Shown here piece after piece: positions 41,299 to 54,185 of a stretch of DNA of 64,000 nucleotides. The position numbers and the translations under genes were made by a program. The notes under the pieces are model-generated. The model was not told the DNA's origin and made no database searches. It worked only from the letters and a program-made list of their open reading frames with translations. Source of the DNA: Escherichia coli (GTDB lineage Bacteria > Pseudomonadota > Gammaproteobacteria > Enterobacterales > Enterobacteriaceae); NCBI RefSeq assembly GCF_048403405.1, contig NZ_CP183136.1. One strand, written 5' to 3'. Position 1 is the first letter of the stretch; the number at the start of each line of letters is the position of its first letter.

Positions 41299-41430
41299 TC
41301 TGGCAGGGCAAGGGATGGGTAAGGTGAAATCTATCAATCAGTACCGGCTTACGCCGGGCTTCGGCGGTTTTACTCCGGTATCACATGTAACCACAGCGTG
41401 CCGCCTTCCATGCCGCTGGCGCGGCATAAG
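41299..41430 (+). repeat. Conserved motif, copy 2 of 3 (gggtaaggtgaaatctatcaatcagtaccggcttacgccgg ... gccttccatgccgctggcgcggcataa)
   Basis: Shares blocks with 49934..50050 and 2620..2710. Confidence 0.5.
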
Positions 41431-42233: not shown

Positions 42234-42899
42234 TCAACGTTCTTTAGCTCCTTCCACTAACAGCCGACCTATCTCAAACACCGCAGCTGACCGTCCCGAC
42301 TTCACCGCTTCGGCTTTCTGTCCCTCAACAAACCAGTTATTACCGTCCGTTCGGACCAACTCAAACATCCATGACATATCGTAAACGTGTTCCGGGATCA
42401 GCGACCCTTCTCCGGCCAGAATACCCGCCGTTATGGAGTGGTTGCCCCCGTGCACAAAGCCAATACGCCAGGGCAACCACAGGTCAACATAGTGGTTGTT
42501 TTTATCTTGCTTCCACGGCTTCCCCTTATGGGTTCCAATGCGTGAAACGTTATCGATATAGCGTGGTAGGCTCCAAGGCCACGGCAGCACTATGTCGCTT
42601 GCCAGCGACAACGGATAATCAGCGCCGTTCATCTCACACTCTTTCATCTTTTCGTAAGATTGTATTTGGGTAAGTCCCTTAAAGAAGAACTCCTGCGGGG
42701 TCATATCCGGGCGGGCATCTGTTCCCTCCTCAGCTACCGCCAGCAAGAAATCACTCTGTACTGGCCGCACGATAGCGCGAATGAGATCTGGTAGCGCCTT
42801 AACGGGTAGTTTCTCTGCCACAGAAAGCAGATGATTGAAGCGTTTTTTTTCATTGGCTATAGTTGCTTTATCTTTCTTGTTTCGGTTCCAGAACATCAC
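42234..42899 (-). CDS. Hypothetical protein (221 aa)
   Basis: Long ORF; no family recognised. Confidence 0.5.
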   Translation of the reverse strand: MMFWNRNKKDKATIANEKKRFNHLLSVAEKLPVKALPDLIRAIVRPVQSDFLLAVAEEGTDARPDMTPQEFFFKGLTQIQSYEKMKECEMNGADYPLSLASDIVLPWPWSLPRYIDNVSRIGTHKGKPWKQDKNNHYVDLWLPWRIGFVHGGNHSITAGILAGEGSLIPEHVYDMSWMFELVRTDGNNWFVEGQKAEAVKSGRSAAVFEIGRLLVEGAKER

Positions 42900-48286: not shown

Positions 48287-49343
48287 GGCTTTGTTGAATA
48301 AATCGAACTTTTGCTGAGTTGAAGGATCAGATCACGCATCTTCCCGACAACGCAGACCGTTCCGTGGCAAAGCAAAAGTTCAAAATAACCAACTGGCCCA
48401 CCTACAATAAAGCCCTCATCAACCGTGGCTCCATAACTTTCTGGCTGGATGATGAAGCTATTCAGGCCTGGTATGAGTCAGCAACACCTTCTTCACGAGG
48501 CAGACCTCAGCGCTATTCTGACCTTGCCATCACGACTGTGCTGGTCATTAAACGCGTATTCAGGCTGACCCTGCGCGCTGCGCAGGGCTTTATTGATTCC
48601 ATTTTTTCTCTGATGAACGTTCCGCTACGCTGCCCGGATTACAGCTGTGTCAGCAGGCGGGCAAAGTCGGTTAATATCAGTTTCAAAACGCCCACCCGGG
48701 GTGAAATCGCACACCTGGTAATTGATTCCACCGGGCTGAAGGTCTTCGGTGAAGGCGAGTGGAAAGTCAAAAAGCATGGTCAGGAACGCCGCCGTATCTG
48801 GCGTAAGCTGCATCTGGCAGTTGACAGCAACACACATGAAATCATCTGTGCAGACCTGTCGCTGAACAATGTGACGGACTCAGAAGCCTTCCCGGGTCTT
48901 ATCCGGCAGACTCACAGAAAAATCAGGGCAGCATCGGCAGACGGCGCTTACGACACCCGGCTCTGTCACGATGAACTGCGGCGTAAGAAAATCAGCGCGC
49001 TTATCCCACCCCGAAAAGGCGCGGGTTACTGGCCCGGTGAATATGCAGACCGTAACCGTGCTGTTGCGAATCAGCGAATGACCGGGAGTAATGCGCGGTG
49101 GAAATGGACAACAGATTACAACCGTCGCTCGATAGCGGAAACGGCGATGTACCGGGTAAAACAGCTGTTCGGGGGTTCACTGACGCTGCGTGACTACGAT
49201 GGTCAGGTTGCGGAGGCTATGGCCCTGGTACGAGCGCTGAACAAAATGACGAAAGCAGGTATGCCTGAAAGCGTGCGTATTGCCTGAAAACACAACCCGC
49301 TACGGGGGAGACTTACCCGAAATCTGATTTATTCAACAAAGCC
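48287..49343 (+). mobile_element. IS903 (IS5 family), 1057 bp, 18-bp terminal inverted repeats, 9-bp target duplication AAATGTAGG
   Basis: IR ggctttgttgaataaatc at 48287 and its reverse complement ending 49343; identical aaatgtagg at 48278..48286 and 49344..49352. Confidence 0.9.
48319..49287 (+). CDS. IS903 transposase
   Basis: 322-aa ORF filling the element; IS903/IS102 transposase from recall. Confidence 0.9.
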   Translation: MKDQITHLPDNADRSVAKQKFKITNWPTYNKALINRGSITFWLDDEAIQAWYESATPSSRGRPQRYSDLAITTVLVIKRVFRLTLRAAQGFIDSIFSLMNVPLRCPDYSCVSRRAKSVNISFKTPTRGEIAHLVIDSTGLKVFGEGEWKVKKHGQERRRIWRKLHLAVDSNTHEIICADLSLNNVTDSEAFPGLIRQTHRKIRAASADGAYDTRLCHDELRRKKISALIPPRKGAGYWPGEYADRNRAVANQRMTGSNARWKWTTDYNRRSIAETAMYRVKQLFGGSLTLRDYDGQVAEAMALVRALNKMTKAGMPESVRIA

Positions 49344-49469: not shown

Positions 49470-49679
49470 TCAGATATGTGAACCACTTCCGCCGCTGCCA
49501 CCGTTTCCACCACTACAACCGTTGCTGCAACCACCACAACCGCCACCTTGACCACCGCAGCTACCGCCGCCGCCGCCGCCGCCACCACCACCAATGCCAA
49601 CACCTAATGGAGACTGGCGTGATAATTTAAGAGCATCAACGGACAAAACTACACCAAATTCACTCGCTTTTAATTCCAT
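49470..49679 (-). CDS. mcbA: McbA, microcin B17 precursor
   Basis: 69-aa translation with leader MELKASEFGVVLSVDALKLSRQSPLG and Gly/Ser/Cys-rich core, matches McbA. Confidence 0.95.
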   Translation of the reverse strand: MELKASEFGVVLSVDALKLSRQSPLGVGIGGGGGGGGGGSCGGQGGGCGGCSNGCSGGNGGSGGSGSHI

Positions 49680-49900
49680 AAGGACTCCTTTTTTAAGGGA
49701 AATTAATGCTTATGACATCTGAATAGTATGTTGGCCAACACTAGTTACTTGCCGTAATTAACTATATTTTGCAATGATAATTTGAACTAAATTTGTACGC
49801 TTGTTAAATATTTAATAATAATATCAGTTGGTTATGTTTATGCTGTTATTGTTTTTTTACAAAAATTAATATTGTGTTTACATTTTGCTTTCAGTTGCTG
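49680..49900 (-). promoter_or_regulatory. AT-rich mcb promoter region
   Basis: AT-rich sequence directly upstream of mcbA; inferred from position. Confidence 0.4.
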
Positions 49901-49933
49901 TCAGGATGTCACACTACCCCTTTAAGCCCCCAC

Positions 49934-50050
49934 TGGTCTGGCAGGGCCGGGGGTGGGTAAGGTGAAACCTGTCAATCAGTACCGGCTTACGCCGGTATCA
50001 TATGCAACAACTGAGTGCCGCCTTCCATATCATATCATTTGCCCGTTTCC
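49934..50050 (+). repeat. Conserved motif, copy 3 of 3
   Basis: tctggcagggccgggggtgggtaaggtgaaacctgtcaatcagtaccggcttacgccgg ... tgccgccttccata, similar to 41299..41430. Confidence 0.5.
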
Positions 50051-50208
50051 CGCCGTGCAGATCCGGTTTCCGGCTGAAGTGGATCCAGACCTGATTTGTT
50101 GCTGAGTATCGGTAAAAGAGCGGCTTATAATCTATTCTGAAACATGGCAAGTGAATCTGGGCTGTATAATTCCGGCAAGTGTCATCTGTATTTAAAGGTC
50201 GTGTGAGT

Positions 50209-50661
50209 ATGAAATTTATGGAATGTGCTGTCCGGGATGTGATTTATGGGACCAATGTCCGTATTGTCAAACCGGTCAACATTTATGAATGTGAACTCAG
50301 GGACAATGTGTTTGTCGGCCCCTTCGTTGAGATACAGAAAGGCTGTGTCATTGGTAGTGGAAGCCGGATACAGTCGCACACGTTTATTTGTGAGAACGTA
50401 ACACTGGGGGAGAACTGCTTCATTGGTCATAACGTGACGTTCGCCAACGATCTGTTTCGTTCAGGAGCACCAGATCCGTCACCGGATAACTGGATCAGCA
50501 TTACCCTGGGGGATTCGGTTACTGTTGGCAGTGGAGCCATTATTCTGTCTCCGTATATATGCAGCGGAGCTGTTATTGGTGCGGGGGCAGTTGTAGTAAA
50601 ACCGATTGAGAACAAAGGCATTTATGCAGGAAACCCGGCAAGACTGATCAGAATATTATGA
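50209..50661 (+). CDS. Hexapeptide-repeat acyl/acetyltransferase
   Basis: Left-handed beta-helix hexapeptide repeats; start at MKFMECAVRD is inferred. Confidence 0.65.
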   Translation: MKFMECAVRDVIYGTNVRIVKPVNIYECELRDNVFVGPFVEIQKGCVIGSGSRIQSHTFICENVTLGENCFIGHNVTFANDLFRSGAPDPSPDNWISITLGDSVTVGSGAIILSPYICSGAVIGAGAVVVKPIENKGIYAGNPARLIRIL

Positions 50662-50665
50662 AAAA

Positions 50666-50696
50666 GAAAAGGGCCGTTACTGGCCCTTTTTATCAG
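50666..50696 (+). terminator. Rho-independent terminator
   Basis: Hairpin gggccgttactggccc flanked by A and T runs. Confidence 0.6.
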
Positions 50697-51063
50697 AGGT
50701 AGGTCTGTGAATACGGCAGGTGTACAGAAATCGACTGCCGGGGATCGATTTCCAGGGCCGCCCGGTATTCTGCGTCAGTGATATCACCTTTTTTCAGTAA
50801 ATAACCGAGAGCATCGTTTCCCAGCCCTGACAGTATGCGTATTCTGGCGATCCGGACTGGCAAATAACCCATCAAAAACGTTATTGCCAGACATTGCGAA
50901 CTCACCAATTTTGATTATTGGAGCCACTTTTTCATAAGTTCCGTGAAATTATTTCATAATAACGACCCTGTTTATTTTATGTAATGACTGGCAATAAAAT
51001 AACTTGATTAAGTTCCCTTTATCCAGCCTGATAGTGGATAAAGGAAACTCAATCATAATTTAA

Positions 51064-51417
51064 TTAGTTTATTAACTTCATCGCATTCTTTTTTGTCTCC
51101 TCATCACTTTTTTGCTCCGATTGTGAAGAGGACTGAATGATTGTTGAAGAATTTAAATCGGCCATCTCTTTTGGAAATAGCGATCTCAATATATTCACGA
51201 TATCTGAAAATGTGGTTTCTTTCGTCAGCAGTTCACATAAAAGGAAAGGGGCCCTGGGATCTTGTCTGTATAAGGCCAGACCTGCCGTCAGTGCAGCCCG
51301 GTTAAGGCGGCTGCGTTCCCCTTGCGGGATACTGTCCAGTGTATCACAAACAATTTTATCTGTTTGATTTACATCTGGATTTAGCTTAAAGGCAATGGTT
51401 CTGCGCTTGTCCATCAT
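51064..51417 (-). CDS. parR: ParR (StbB) centromere-binding protein
   Basis: 117-aa ORF downstream of parM. Confidence 0.8.
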   Translation of the reverse strand: MMDKRRTIAFKLNPDVNQTDKIVCDTLDSIPQGERSRLNRAALTAGLALYRQDPRAPFLLCELLTKETTFSDIVNILRSLFPKEMADLNSSTIIQSSSQSEQKSDEETKKNAMKLIN

Positions 51418-52379
51418 TAATTACCTATGAGATACATACCGTTAACTAAATCATATTGAGAGTTATTGGTTTTAAAAAAACGTTCATCACGAATCTGTGT
51501 GTGTTTTTTTACTGCATCGCATATTAATTCTGCGCCACCACCTATAACCATAACATGAGTATAACCAGAAAATTCATTGAGTGTATTTAATACACGTTGC
51601 TCAAGTTTACGAAGTGCTTCATTCATTGCTTCGGTGACTATTGATATTTTGTTCTCATCATTAATTCGTTGCTTCAGATAGTTATTATCTTTTCTGTGAA
51701 TAATTATATCATCAGCAAGATAGCTACTTCCTTTTGTTCTCGCAAGAGAAAGGGCATCTTTTACTGCAGATGTGACCAGAGATACACCAAGAGATGAGTC
51801 TCCGTATATTTTACTGATCCCCGATAATTTCCCCATTACCTGAGAAATATCTAATGTGGTGCCCCCGAGATCTATAATTAATAAAGAATCTAACTCATCC
51901 AGTTCTTGTAGAACTTCATAACCTGCCGGTATAGATTCAGGCATGACTTTTACATCTTTTATTGTGAATGTATCCCCACCATTTAATGTAATTTTTTTCC
52001 GGAAGTTTGCTTTCTTACGCTCAATATTTTCCGTATTGGGTTGGTTATTCCTGTCGTAATACTCTGTCAGAGGAAGTGTGCAAACAATATCCACTTCGCT
52101 TACCGGCAGACCACTGGTCAGTAAGGCGTGGTGCACCGCAACGACATTAACGTCGCTGTATTGCCATGCGATATTGGTTGTGACTACAGCATCCGGGCTG
52201 ATTGGATCAAATGAATACTGTTCGCCGTTCAGTGTGTAGTTAAAGACCTTTTTATCACCAAAAGAAACTGCCCACTCGCGTTTGAAGCTGTTCGGGCTAA
52301 TGTGCTGTTTAATTGTTCCGTCGCTTTCCTGCCACTGTAGTTTGATGTTTGTTGAACCGTCATCAATGAATACCAACAT
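51417..52379 (-). CDS. parM: ParM (StbA) actin-like partition ATPase
   Basis: 320 aa, [16 protein letters not shown]... with actin-fold phosphate motifs ([16 protein letters not shown]). Confidence 0.9.
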
Positions 52380-52384
52380 TTATA

Positions 52385-52560
52385 AAACTCCTTATGGTGT
52401 TTTTTTGGTGTTTGTTTGGGTGTGTTTTGGGCTTTAAATGGGTTTATTTGTCAAGTTTACCCCATTTTAACTATCAATCAATGATTATTTGTCTTGTTTT
52501 GGTGTTTTGTTGGGCTTGGTATGGGTTGTTTTTGGGTTTTGTTTGGCGGATAACAAAAGA
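52385..52560 (-). other. parC: parC centromere
   Basis: Tandem short iterons (ggtgtttgtttgg variants) directly upstream of parM. Confidence 0.65.
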
Positions 52561-52870
52561 TGTCGCCGGGCTCCTCTTTTTACTGCGCCGGCTGACGCGG
52601 CGCGGCATAAACGCTGCCTGTGGTCAGTGTCCCGCGTCCGGTGGGCACGGGACGGGCGCTTTTACCGCTCCCGGCTGGCGTCGGTGACAGTGTACGCCAG
52701 CCTGTCGCCCTTTTCTGATGAACGCCCTTCAAGCCGCTTTCGCGGCATAGCCTTGCCGTCAGAAAGACGACGGCTGCGGTATTCCACGGTCGGCCTGACC
52801 CGTTACCGGACGCGGTGAACAGCCCACAGGCAGCGGGGAACGGGCGCCACAGGGGCGCCCTCCCGATGCT
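52555..52870 (+). repeat. About 320-bp leading-region repeat, family 2, copy 1
   Basis: Near-identical to 53855..54185; GC-rich; ends at the start codon of the downstream gene. Confidence 0.8.
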
Positions 52871-52873
52871 CCT

Positions 52874-53815
52874 GTGAGGATAATTCCCATGCCAAACTGG
52901 TGCTCGAATCGTATGTATTTTTCTGGTGAACCGGCACAGATCGCTGAGATTAAACGACTGGCCAGCGGTGCAGTCACACCGCTTTATCGCCGCGCCACAA
53001 ATGAAGGTATTCAGCTGTTTCTGGCCGGAAGTGCCGGACTTCTGCAGATCACTGAAAATATCCGCTCTGAGCAGTGCCCCGGAGTGACGGCTGCCGGACG
53101 TGGTGCTGTATCACTGGAAAATATCGCGTTCACCCGCTGGCTGACACACCTGCAGAACGGTGTACTGCTGGATGAGCAAAACTGCCTGATGCTGCATGAA
53201 CTCTGGCTGCAGAGCGGTACTGGACAGCGTCGCTGGGAAGGGTTACCGGATGATGTCAGGGAAACTATCACTGTGCATTTCACCGCAAAAAGAGGTGACT
53301 GGTGTGACATCTGGGGTAACGAGGATGTATCGGTGTGGTGGAACCGTCTGTGTGACAACGTACTGCCGGAAAAAACCATGCCGTTTGACCTGCTGACGGT
53401 TTTGCCGACCCGCCTGGATATTGAAGTGAATGGCTTTAACGGCGGTGTTCTGAACGGTGTTCCTTCTGCATATCACTGGTATACAGAACGGTATGGCGTG
53501 AAGTGGCCTTGTGGGTATGACCTGAATATCAGCAGTCAGGGGGAAAACTTCATTCAGGTGGATTTCGACACGCCGTGGTGTCAGCCGGAAAGCGACGTTG
53601 TTGCAGAATTAAGCCGCCGTTTCGGCTGCACGCTGGAGCACTGGTACGCCGAACAGGGCTGCAATTTCTGTGGCTGGCAGTTGTATGAGCGCGGAGAGCT
53701 TGTTGATGTGCTGTGGGGGGAACTGGAATGGTCTTCCCCGACAGATGACGATGAGCTGCCGGAAGTCACCGGACCTGCGTGGATAGTCGACAATGTGACG
53801 CATTATGGCGGATGA
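52874..53815 (+). CDS. Hypothetical leading-region protein (313 aa)
   Basis: Long ORF bracketed by the family-2 repeats; no family recognised. Confidence 0.6.
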   Translation: MRIIPMPNWCSNRMYFSGEPAQIAEIKRLASGAVTPLYRRATNEGIQLFLAGSAGLLQITENIRSEQCPGVTAAGRGAVSLENIAFTRWLTHLQNGVLLDEQNCLMLHELWLQSGTGQRRWEGLPDDVRETITVHFTAKRGDWCDIWGNEDVSVWWNRLCDNVLPEKTMPFDLLTVLPTRLDIEVNGFNGGVLNGVPSAYHWYTERYGVKWPCGYDLNISSQGENFIQVDFDTPWCQPESDVVAELSRRFGCTLEHWYAEQGCNFCGWQLYERGELVDVLWGELEWSSPTDDDELPEVTGPAWIVDNVTHYGG

Positions 53816-53854
53816 AGTATGACGGAGACGGGCGGGCAACCGCCCGTTTCTTTT

Positions 53855-54185
53855 CCGACAAAGGATGTCGCCGTGCTCCTCTTTTTACTGCGCCGGCTGA
53901 CGCGGCGCGGCATAAACGCTGCCTGTGGTCAGTGTCCCGCGTCCGGCGGGCACGGGGCGGGCGCTTTTACCGCTCCCGGCTGGCGTCGGTGACAGTGTAC
54001 GCCAGCCCGTCGCCCTTTTCTGATGAACGCCCTTCAAGCCGCTTTCGCGGCATAACCTTGCCGTCAAAAAGACGACGGCTGCGGTATTCCACGGTCGGCC
54101 TGACCCGTTACCGGACGCGGTGAACAGCCCACAGGCAGCGGGGAACGGGCACCACAGGGGTGCCCTCCCGGTGCCCTCTGTAAGA
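53855..54185 (+). repeat. About 320-bp leading-region repeat, family 2, copy 2
   Basis: Near-identical to 52555..52870; abuts the methyltransferase start. Confidence 0.8.

What the first reader, a model, noticed from the sequence alone, without database searches (positions are those of the whole stretch)
50209..50908. Hexapeptide acetyltransferase and an opposite-strand small ORF between the mcb promoter and parMR
The acetyltransferase is intact and has its own terminator. Its substrate and any link to microcin immunity or modification are unknown. The 71-aa minus-strand ORF at 50693..50908 may be a gene remnant.
Basis: inference. Interest (0 to 1): 0.3.

Follow-up and report, generated by a model that had tools for sequence, protein, structure and literature searches.

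The report
Orphan acetyltransferase from decayed amino-sugar cluster
The acetyltransferase next to the microcin B17 genes has no link to the microcin: it is the only intact gene left from a six-gene, kanosamine-type amino-sugar cluster that related plasmids carry whole, and the small opposite-strand ORF is the cut-off end of that cluster's monooxygenase gene.

Summary
A 150-aa hexapeptide-repeat acetyltransferase (AT) lies at 50209..50661 (+), a hairpin terminator at 50666..50691, and a 71-aa ORF at 50693..50908 (-).

The ORF is not a gene. Its last 53 codons are the 3' end of a 510-aa flavin monooxygenase (FMO) gene. Its first 18 codons are plasmid backbone read across a recombination joint at 50847-50856.

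Window 50028..50856 is an 829-bp fragment of a cluster that is intact in sister IncF plasmids (pH1519-76, NZ_OX637966.1), an Erwinia megaplasmid and the Erwinia amylovora chromosome. The cluster is kabA/ntdA-, kabB/ntdB- and kabC-like genes, then SemiSWEET, then FMO, with the AT convergent.

No functional link to mcb is supported. The AT occurs in 342 PLSDB plasmids and is adjacent to mcb in only 88, all sharing one junction. mcb also occurs without the AT.

The AT family is under strong purifying selection (dN/dS 0.04-0.10) and often stands alone in chromosomes. Its nearest solved relatives are mostly 3-amino-sugar N-acetyltransferases.

Best reading (inferred): an acetyl-CoA-dependent N-acetyltransferase for kanosamine or a derivative, surviving here as an orphan protective or tailoring gene.

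Interest is moderate. It lies mainly in the uncharacterised parent cluster, which encodes the crystallised E. coli SemiSWEET.

The parts
49934..50028 (.). Diverged partial copy of an IncF sequence whose other copy lies at window ~41300-41430, downstream of repA/ori. It ends at the left recombination joint (50028).
   Evidence: blastn and alignment. The mcb plasmid without the AT (L018) continues this sequence past 50028, whereas the window switches to AT-module sequence.
50028..50074 (.). 47 bp of flank from the ydfA side of IncI1/ColV-type plasmids, carried in with the AT fragment. This shows the fragment came second-hand from a plasmid where the cluster already sat beside ydeA/ydfA.
   Evidence: These 47 bp match at 100% in many plasmids that lack the AT. 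In IncI1 pECOH45 they lie 148 bp upstream of the ydfA-like gene.
50075..50208 (+). Native upstream region of the AT. It has a Shine-Dalgarno-like AAAGG about 8 nt before the ATG and a TATAAT at 50166-50171. The promoter is not established.
   Evidence: Sequence. The region is shared with ColV, E. albertii and ST131 plasmids. Only the ribosome-binding region is conserved across genera, and the consensus scan found no AT promoter.
50209..50661 (+). Intact 150-aa left-handed beta-helix (hexapeptide-repeat) acetyltransferase.
   Evidence: Pfam PF00132. It is 98% identical in protein to the AT of the intact cluster in L027. The family profile aligns over positions 8-146 with the acetyltransferase domain of 4MZU. 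dN/dS is 0.04-0.10.
50666..50691 (.). Bidirectional intrinsic terminator hairpin between the convergent AT and FMO genes.
50693..50856 (-). 3' remnant of the FMO-like monooxygenase gene: stop codon at 50693-50695 plus the last 53 codons. DNA homology runs to 50856.
   Evidence: 98% identical in DNA to L001 and L027 up to 50856. The 53 C-terminal residues are identical to the 510-aa FMO of L027. The FMO family is PF00743.
50847..50856 (.). Right recombination joint, with an imperfect 10-bp microhomology (GCGATCCGGA against GCGCTCCGGG).
   Evidence: The two blastn alignments overlap here, and the sequences are printed.
50693..50908 (-). The 71-aa ORF of the finding. It is a chimera of 18 junction/backbone codons and 53 FMO codons, and is not a gene.
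   Evidence: No family hit passes a threshold. It is not annotated in RefSeq copies of the same sequence.
50857..51063 (.). IncF backbone downstream of parR. It holds the 5' part of a small backbone ORF that is itself degenerate here (stop at its third codon).
   Evidence: 92-95% identical to a Shigella dysenteriae plasmid, L002.
51064..52379 (-). parR (51064..51417) and parM (51417..52379), given as context.
   Evidence: Pfam Plasmid_stab_B and the annotation of identical plasmids.

Best explanation
SHOWN. Window 50028..50856 is an 829-bp leftover of a six-gene accessory cluster. Intact copies read: DegT-type aminotransferase, HAD-IIB phosphatase, Gfo/Idh/MocA dehydrogenase, SemiSWEET and FMO on one strand, with the hexapeptide AT convergent on the other. 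The first three proteins are homologues, in the same order, of the kanosamine (3-amino-3-deoxy-D-glucose) pathway enzymes NtdA/KabA, NtdB/KabB and KabC of Bacillus. In the window lineage the mcb segment replaced everything left of 50028. A second joint at 50847-50856 removed the cluster from inside the FMO gene onward. That left the AT, its 134-bp upstream region, the shared terminator and 53 FMO codons. The 71-aa ORF is that stump read on into backbone DNA.

INFERRED. The AT is an acetyl-CoA-dependent N-acetyltransferase whose substrate is the 3-amino group of kanosamine or of the FMO-modified derivative. Because the same enzyme family persists under strong purifying selection as a lone gene in many genomes, it probably works alone by neutralising such an amino sugar. 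On this plasmid it would then be an orphan protective gene, comparable to an orphan bacteriocin immunity gene. It plays no part in microcin B17 synthesis, export or immunity.

The confidence given is for the whole statement. The SHOWN part alone is about 0.9. The substrate assignment is about 0.5. The protective (rather than purely tailoring) role is about 0.3.
For: Fragment limits and joints.

Intact clusters: E. coli ST131 plasmid NZ_OX637966.1; pH1519-76, in the same backbone slot between repA and parRM; Erwinia sp. E602 megaplasmid, where the AT is 75% identical; and the E. amylovora chromosome, where the AT is 80% identical.

Pathway identity: the aminotransferase matches KabA 7KZ3 (6e-91) and NtdA 4K2B (2e-88). 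The phosphatase matches NtdB 3GYG (5e-47). Against the B. thuringiensis kab cluster the proteins are 44%, 37% and 35% identical to KabA, KabB and KabC, full length and in the same order, with a transporter gene following in both clusters.

AT relatives: the best solved matches are the acetyltransferase domain of WxcM-like 4MZU (profile positions 8-146), QdtC and WlbB. From my own knowledge, these acetylate the C3 amino group of nucleotide-linked sugars. The invariant N80-D81 of the AT family aligns with QdtC N159-D160.

Selection and stand-alone occurrence: dN/dS is 0.04-0.10. The AT is a lone gene in unrelated contexts.

Independence from mcb.

Decay of the cluster: 534 plasmids hold some part of it, only 59 hold >=80% of it, and 337 hold a full AT.
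Against: No biochemical or expression data exist for this AT, and no promoter was identified.

Similarity to characterised amino-sugar N-acetyltransferases is distant (E about 1e-10 to 1e-13), and no NCBIfam model reaches its cut-off. Those relatives use nucleotide-linked sugars, whereas the Kab/Ntd route makes a free or 6-phosphorylated sugar. LpxD and DapH score nearly as well.

In E. amylovora the kabABC-like genes and SemiSWEET are intact, but the FMO is frameshifted and the AT has a stop at codon 131. This argues that the AT is not needed for self-protection there. It fits better with the AT and FMO being a tailoring pair.

Many ColV plasmids keep the FMO/SemiSWEET fragment without the AT, so retention of the AT may reflect lineage expansion rather than selection.

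The structure model was mediocre (pLDDT 68), and the fold search gave no significant hit.
Confidence: 0.55

Rival explanations
1. The AT is purely a tailoring enzyme that works with the FMO on the cluster's product, for example N-oxygenation followed by acetylation of the 3-amino group. Without the pathway it has no substrate, so in this window it is an inert passenger that has not yet decayed.
For: The AT and FMO are adjacent in every intact cluster. In E. amylovora both are inactivated while kabABC-like genes and SemiSWEET stay intact. Plasmid copies differ by too few substitutions to show selection within the plasmid lineage (dN/dS 0.2-0.46 on 3-5 changes).
Against: The AT is transcribed convergently, not within the operon. 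Homologues at 69-91% identity stand alone in unrelated chromosomal neighbourhoods under strong purifying selection. That needs a substrate which does not depend on a neighbouring cluster. At least five different truncation end-points spare the AT ORF.
Confidence: 0.27
2. The AT is a general sugar or xenobiotic acetyltransferase unrelated to the amino-sugar cluster, and its position beside the cluster is a historical accident.
For: Most homologues examined are lone genes with no kab-like neighbours. Weak matches to Maa/LacA, CatB and Vat families also exist.
Against: The convergent AT-FMO arrangement, separated by about 30 bp (a hairpin terminator in the E. coli copies), is kept from E. coli plasmids to Salmonella (88% nt), Erwinia sp. 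E602 (75% aa) and E. amylovora (80% aa). Matches to xenobiotic acetyltransferase models score 27-29 bits against cut-offs of 300-450.
Confidence: 0.12
3. One reading: the AT modifies microcin B17 or contributes to immunity against it.
For: It lies 530 bp from mcbA, divergently oriented. 88 of about 105 E. coli-type mcb plasmids carry it.
Against: All 88 share one junction, so this is one historical event. 254 of 342 AT plasmids and 91 chromosomal copies lack adjacent mcb. mcb occurs without the AT. The AT clearly belongs to another cluster. From established knowledge, mcbABCDEFG alone give production, export and immunity.
Confidence: 0.02
4. The 71-aa minus-strand ORF encodes a functional small protein.
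For: It is an open frame of 71 codons with a TTG start.
Against: It spans a recombination joint. Its first 18 codons are backbone DNA in an arbitrary frame and its last 53 are the tail of a 510-aa enzyme. It has no family match and is not annotated in RefSeq copies.
Confidence: 0.03

Closest known systems
Nucleotide-sugar 3-amino-sugar N-acetyltransferases of the left-handed beta-helix class: the FdtD/WxcM-like acetyltransferase domain (PDB 4MZU), QdtC (3FS8) and WlbB (3MQG)
   Same: Hexapeptide-repeat fold family. The family profile aligns nearly end to end with the 4MZU acetyltransferase domain (positions 8-146 to 8-146). It shares the F-(T/A)-N-D motif and the C-terminal G-A-G-(A/S)-V-V...G-N-P-A-R segment. 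From my own knowledge, these enzymes acetylate a C3 amino group of a hexose.
   Different: Similarity is only distant (E 1e-10 to 1e-13). No NCBIfam model passes its cut-off. At 150 aa the AT has no extra nucleotide-binding or isomerase domain. Its cluster contains no nucleotidyltransferase or dehydratase, so the substrate is probably a free or 6-phosphorylated sugar rather than a dTDP/UDP-sugar.
Kanosamine pathway operons ntdABC-glcP (Bacillus subtilis) and kabABC-MFS (B. cereus group)
   Same: The parent cluster has homologues of all three enzymes in the same A-B-C order, followed by a sugar-type transporter.
   Different: Identity is only 35-44%. The transporter is a SemiSWEET rather than an MFS protein. 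An FMO and a convergent hexapeptide AT are added. The LacI-type regulator annotated next to the Bacillus kab cluster is not seen beside the enterobacterial one. None of these genes except the AT survives in the window.
Orphan bacteriocin immunity genes on colicin/microcin plasmids (functional analogy only)
   Same: A protective gene kept after loss of the producer genes, sitting among bacteriocin loci (colicin Ia, ColV, mcb).
   Different: No protective activity has been shown. The AT would act enzymatically on a small molecule rather than by binding a protein toxin.
Xenobiotic acetyltransferases (CatB, Vat)
   Same: Same fold superfamily. These are also stand-alone, horizontally mobile resistance enzymes.
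   Different: Scores are 27-29 bits against cut-offs of 300-450. They are O-acetyltransferases with a different loop architecture.

Membership tests
Hexapeptide-repeat (left-handed beta-helix) acyltransferase superfamily | Tandem hexapeptide repeats detected by Pfam PF00132 above the gathering score | tested here: met
   57 bits against a cut-off of 27, with three matched stretches.
Hexapeptide-repeat (left-handed beta-helix) acyltransferase superfamily | Left-handed parallel beta-helix fold forming a trimer | tested here: inconclusive
   The AF2 monomer model has pLDDT 68, with short strands in a repeating pattern for residues 10-80. Foldseek against the PDB gave no hit at E<=0.001. A trimer was not modelled.
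3-amino-sugar N-acetyltransferases (QdtC / FdtC-FdtD / WlbB class) | Significant full-length sequence similarity to characterised members | tested here: inconclusive
   These are the best PDB matches, but at only 3e-13 to 6e-12, with LpxD interleaved. No NCBIfam equivalog passes.
3-amino-sugar N-acetyltransferases (QdtC / FdtC-FdtD / WlbB class) | Conserved Asn-Asp pair that positions the sugar amino group (QdtC N159-D160; the residues' role is from my own knowledge) | tested here: met
   AT N80-D81 align with QdtC residues 159-160 and are invariant in 34 family members.
3-amino-sugar N-acetyltransferases (QdtC / FdtC-FdtD / WlbB class) | Genomic association with a nucleotide-sugar pathway (nucleotidyltransferase, 4,6-dehydratase, ketoisomerase) | tested here: not met
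   Intact clusters contain only Kab/Ntd-type genes, SemiSWEET and FMO.
3-amino-sugar N-acetyltransferases (QdtC / FdtC-FdtD / WlbB class) | Acetyl-CoA-dependent N-acetylation of a 3-amino sugar | not testable with these tools
   This needs an enzyme assay.
Kanosamine biosynthesis cluster (NtdABC / KabABC type), as the parent of the fragment | Homologues of the aminotransferase, phosphatase and dehydrogenase, co-linear | tested here: met
   Met in L027, L028, L031 and L032. None of the three genes is present in the window itself.
Kanosamine biosynthesis cluster (NtdABC / KabABC type), as the parent of the fragment | Production of kanosamine | not testable with these tools
   This needs metabolite analysis of a strain with the intact cluster.
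Microcin B17 system (mcbABCDEFG) | Obligate co-occurrence with the mcb operon | tested here: not met
   88 of 342 AT plasmids have mcb adjacent, and mcb occurs without the AT.
Xenobiotic acetyltransferases (CatB / Vat) | Score above the NCBIfam cut-off | tested here: not met
   26.8-28.9 bits against cut-offs of 300-450.

The most novel reading that the evidence does not exclude
E. coli IncF/ColV virulence plasmids, Salmonella plasmids and Erwinia carry an uncharacterised small-molecule antagonism module. It would comprise a kanosamine-type pathway, an FMO that oxygenates the amino sugar, a SemiSWEET exporter (the crystallised EcSemiSWEET, whose natural substrate is unknown), and a convergent hexapeptide N-acetyltransferase that serves as the resistance determinant. 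The AT in this window, and the many lone copies in other Enterobacterales and Vibrionaceae, would then be orphan resistance genes against that amino-sugar antibiotic or against Bacillus kanosamine. That would be a new enzymatic resistance class, sitting among colicin and microcin genes.
Probability: 0.25. Interest if true: 0.65.

Novelty: new member of a known kind. Interest (0 to 1): 0.4.

Why it matters
For this window the result removes a false lead. The acetyltransferase is not a hidden eighth microcin B17 gene, and the small ORF is debris from recombination.

The wider value is the parent cluster. A kanosamine-like pathway with an added monooxygenase, a SemiSWEET transporter and this acetyltransferase occurs in whole or in pieces in 534 sequenced plasmids, and the AT in about 7-8% of complete E. 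coli genomes. In the literature I could search it has only a passing annotation-level mention at most: ntdABC genes noted on one E. coli plasmid, not checked to be this cluster.

The cluster also encodes the exact protein crystallised as E. coli SemiSWEET. The authors of that structure doubted that sucrose is its real substrate. The gene context gives a concrete candidate, kanosamine or a derivative.

It also gives a concrete assay for the acetyltransferase, which could turn out to be a mobile resistance enzyme.

Tried and rejected
- **NCBIfam** scan of the AT: 53 weak matches, none near its cut-off, so no name can be transferred.
- **PADLOC** defence models: no match for the AT.
- **Rfam** scan of 49650-51100 for a leader or riboswitch: only two chance-level matches.
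- **Promoter scan and cross-genus alignment** of the AT upstream region: no conserved promoter, only the ribosome-binding region.
- **AlphaFold2 model** of the AT from a 34-sequence alignment: pLDDT 68, with a disordered C-terminus. **Foldseek** against the PDB gave no hit at E<=0.001, and the top hits were pentapeptide-repeat proteins at chance level. The structure route was abandoned.
- **Conserved partner genes** next to lone AT homologues: small ORFs flank it in Salmonella, Brenneria and Photobacterium, but they are unrelated to one another.
- **Simple deletion from an L027-type plasmid** as the origin of the right joint: rejected, because window 50857-51048 is absent from L027 and matches another IncF backbone variant.
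- **Literature searches** for PDB entry 8ODW (the best FMO match) and for an Erwinia or E. coli kanosamine cluster. Nothing was found beyond a passing mention of ntdABC genes on an enteroaggregative E. coli plasmid (PMC5320562).
- **Functional meaning of the adjacency to bacteriocin genes**: considered and judged unproven. Adjacency to colicin Ia follows from insertion next to the backbone genes ydeA/ydfA. The mcb adjacency is one secondary event.

Full report
**1. What is in the sequence**

The ORF list shows a + strand ORF ending at 50661. Its ATG at 50209 gives a 150-aa protein. A 71-aa minus-strand ORF lies at 50693..50908. To the left is mcbA (49470..49679, minus strand). Beyond it is the rest of the mcb operon, with mcbB split by a 1057-bp IS903-type element at 48287..49343. 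To the right are parR (51064..51417; Pfam Plasmid_stab_B) and parM.

The 150-aa protein matches Pfam Hexapep at 57 bits against a cut-off of 27. No NCBIfam model reaches its cut-off. A 10-bp GC-rich hairpin at 50666..50691 folds at -16 kcal/mol on the + strand (z -3.1) and -14.4 kcal/mol on the - strand (z -3.5). U-runs follow it on both strands, so it is a bidirectional terminator between two convergent genes.

**2. The small ORF is a stump read across a recombination joint**

blastn against related plasmids splits the region cleanly:

- Window 50028..50856 (829 bp) is 98% identical to an Escherichia albertii plasmid and an E. coli ST131 plasmid.
- From 50847 rightward the window matches IncF backbone downstream of parR.
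- The two alignments overlap by an imperfect 10-bp microhomology.

In the other plasmids the AT is followed by a convergent 510-aa gene of the flavin-containing monooxygenase family (FMO; PF00743). The last 53 residues of the 71-aa ORF are identical to the C-terminus of that enzyme. The first 18 residues are backbone DNA read in an arbitrary frame. RefSeq copies of the same sequence annotate nothing there. 'Gene remnant' is right, but the ORF as such is not a gene.

**3. The left joint**

Homology to AT-bearing plasmids starts at exactly 50028 in every comparison. Left of it, 49934..50028 is a diverged partial copy of a sequence that also lies near 41300-41430, downstream of the IncFII origin.

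An mcb plasmid without the AT (pFHI_NMBU_10_01) shares the window's sequence up to 50028. It then continues with the rest of that repeated element, a CPBP protease gene, pemIK and parRM.

The first 47 bp of the fragment (50028..50074) are not native to the AT. They match at 100% in many plasmids that lack the AT. In IncI1 pECOH45 they lie 148 bp upstream of the ydfA-like backbone gene. The fragment therefore came second-hand from a plasmid where the AT already sat next to ydeA/ydfA. pH1519-76 and NZ_OX637966.1 have that arrangement.

**4. The parent cluster**

In NZ_OX637966.1 the AT is convergent with a five-gene operon: DegT-type aminotransferase, HAD-IIB hydrolase, Gfo/Idh/MocA oxidoreductase, SemiSWEET and FMO. 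The cluster sits in the same cargo slot, between repA/yacAB and parRM, that mcb plus the AT stump occupy in the window.

| Cluster protein | Best evidence |
|---|---|
| Aminotransferase | KabA 7KZ3, 6e-91; NtdA 4K2B, 2e-88 |
| Hydrolase | NtdB 3GYG, 5e-47 |
| All three enzymes vs the kab cluster of a Bacillus thuringiensis plasmid | 44%, 37% and 35% identical to KabA, KabB, KabC, full length, same order |

A transporter gene follows the three enzymes in both clusters: MFS in Bacillus, SemiSWEET here. From established knowledge (Vetter et al. 2013, cited in PMC5320562), these three enzymes convert glucose-6-phosphate to kanosamine.

The same six-gene architecture, including the convergent AT, occurs in two more places:

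- An Erwinia sp. E602 megaplasmid, where the AT is 75% identical.
- The Erwinia amylovora chromosome, where the AT is 80% identical.

The AT's association with this cluster therefore long predates its arrival next to mcb.

**5. Distribution, and the proposed link to mcb**

| Feature counted | Number |
|---|---|
| PLSDB plasmids with the AT CDS | 342 (337 full length) |
| Plasmids with E. coli-type mcbA plus promoter | about 105 |
| Plasmids with mcbA and the AT contiguous | 88, all >=99.7% identical with the same junction |
| Plasmids with colicin Ia immunity-ydeA-ydfA-AT | 123 |
| Plasmids with AT-(FMO stump)-SemiSWEET-cvi-cvaC | 114 |
| Plasmids holding >=80% of the 5.35-kb cluster | 59 |
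| Plasmids holding any part of the cluster | 534 |
| Complete E. coli genomes with the AT | 392-424 of 5,426 |
| AT places on plasmids / on chromosomes | 365 / 91 |

Among the chromosomal copies, one examined lies in an island beside tRNA-Phe.

The AT is thus neither a backbone gene nor an mcb gene. The mcb adjacency is one historical recombination event that spread with one plasmid lineage. From established knowledge, mcbABCDEFG alone suffice for MccB17 production, export and immunity. The microcin link is not supported.

**6. What the AT most likely does (inferred)**

The AT family is large and tightly conserved. Thousands of homologues exist, and every close one examined is 150 aa with no indels. 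dN/dS against homologues at 65-88% nucleotide identity is 0.04-0.10 where dS is not saturated.

Outside the cluster the gene stands alone in unrelated neighbourhoods:

- After an ATP synthase operon in Brenneria.
- Between prs and ychH in a Klebsiella species.
- Downstream of secDF and a Fic-domain gene in Photobacterium.
- In other varied contexts in Mixta, Edwardsiella, Enterobacter, Rouxiella and Salmonella.

Flanking small ORFs in these genomes are unrelated to each other. Species carrying lone copies do not appear among the named relatives of the cluster's aminotransferase. Only about a quarter of those hits carry names, so this point is suggestive only.

A self-sufficient, mobile, strongly constrained single enzyme is the pattern expected of a detoxifying or resistance activity.

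The best solved relatives are the acetyltransferase domain of the WxcM-like protein 4MZU (profile positions 8-146 aligned to residues 8-146), QdtC and WlbB. LpxD, VioB and DapH follow close behind. From my own knowledge, the first three acetylate the C3 amino group of nucleotide-linked hexoses. Kanosamine carries its amino group at C3. The family-invariant N80-D81 aligns with QdtC N159-D160.

I therefore propose N-acetylation of kanosamine or of the FMO's product. According to a review (PMC9272926), kanosamine is taken up by the glucose transport system and phosphorylated. The 6-phosphate then inhibits glucosamine-6-phosphate synthase. N-acetylation would plausibly block this.

**7. Evidence that cuts the other way**

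- In E. amylovora the three pathway genes and SemiSWEET are intact, but the FMO is frameshifted and the AT has a stop at codon 131. That fits the AT and FMO being a tailoring pair better than the AT being an essential self-immunity gene.
- Many ColV plasmids keep an FMO-SemiSWEET fragment without the AT. Survival of the AT on plasmids may reflect lineage history rather than selection.
- The characterised relatives use nucleotide sugars, and the cluster has no nucleotidyltransferase.
- No promoter was identified, and there are no expression data.
- The structure route failed: pLDDT 68 and no significant Foldseek hit.

I therefore hold two parts at different confidence. That the AT is a cluster remnant unrelated to mcb is near certain. 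That its substrate is a kanosamine-type sugar is about even odds. Protective orphan against inert tailoring gene remains open.

**8. Comparison with what is known, and novelty**

The AT is an uncharacterised member of the hexapeptide-repeat N-acetyltransferases. It cannot be filed as a QdtC/FdtC/WlbB-type enzyme, because its genomic context is not a nucleotide-sugar pathway. It probably works like one.

The parent cluster is a variant of the Bacillus kanosamine operons, extended by a SemiSWEET, an FMO and the AT. In the searchable literature I found only a passing note of 'ntdABC' genes on an enteroaggregative E. coli plasmid (PMC5320562). I did not check whether that is this cluster, and I found nothing on the AT.

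Its SemiSWEET is 89/89 identical to the crystallised E. coli SemiSWEET (4X5M/4X5N). [quoted passage not shown]

**9. Verdict**

In this window the feature is ordinary plasmid mosaicism: one intact orphan gene plus a gene stump. Interest is moderate. The orphan points to an unstudied amino-sugar cluster on E. coli plasmids, including ColV/ColBM types, and to testable substrates for both the acetyltransferase and EcSemiSWEET.

Noticed in passing
L027 7014-7283 (not in the window; the SemiSWEET gene of the parent cluster): The cluster's SemiSWEET is 89/89 identical to the crystallised E. coli SemiSWEET (PDB 4X5M/4X5N). The structure paper doubted that sucrose is its physiological substrate. Its operon context (kabABC-like genes upstream, FMO downstream) suggests kanosamine or a derivative instead.
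   Followed up: partly
window 48287-49343: A 1057-bp IS903/IS102-type insertion sequence (transposase ORF 48319..49287, inverted repeats GGCTTTGTTGAATA, 9-bp target duplication AAATGTAGG) splits mcbB. This copy of the mcb operon probably cannot make mature microcin B17.
   Followed up: partly
window 49934-50028 and window ~41300-41430: A diverged direct repeat of about 95-130 bp. One copy lies downstream of the IncFII repA/origin region and one abuts the mcb promoter region. Further copies flank cargo modules in ColV plasmids (L004 1396-1511 and 13510-13625). It may be a recurrent recombination site or a remnant of a second replicon region.
   Followed up: partly
L031 11338-13409 (Erwinia amylovora chromosome): E. 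amylovora carries the whole six-gene cluster chromosomally, and the aminotransferase is indexed in several hundred assembly blocks. In the strain examined the FMO is frameshifted (47 + 481 aa) and the AT has a premature stop at codon 131, while the kabABC-like genes and SemiSWEET are intact.
   Followed up: partly
window 42234-42899 (-): A DUF6710 gene lies between the RelE/ParE toxin-antitoxin pair and mcbG. It is found in the same place in other mcb plasmids (L012, L018), so it may travel with the mcb segment.
   Followed up: no
window 52489-52818 and 53779-54123: Two similar stretches of about 330 bp give near-identical artefactual ORFs (109 and 114 aa). They flank the DUF1281 gene just beyond parM, forming a direct repeat in the leading-region side of the plasmid.
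   Followed up: no
L004 7454-7564 (ColV plasmid pG749_1): In ColV-type plasmids the FMO gene is deleted from immediately after the AT stop codon. The 111 bp at the deletion point match IS200/IS605-associated sequence, which is also found on pO157-like and Yersinia plasmids.
   Followed up: no
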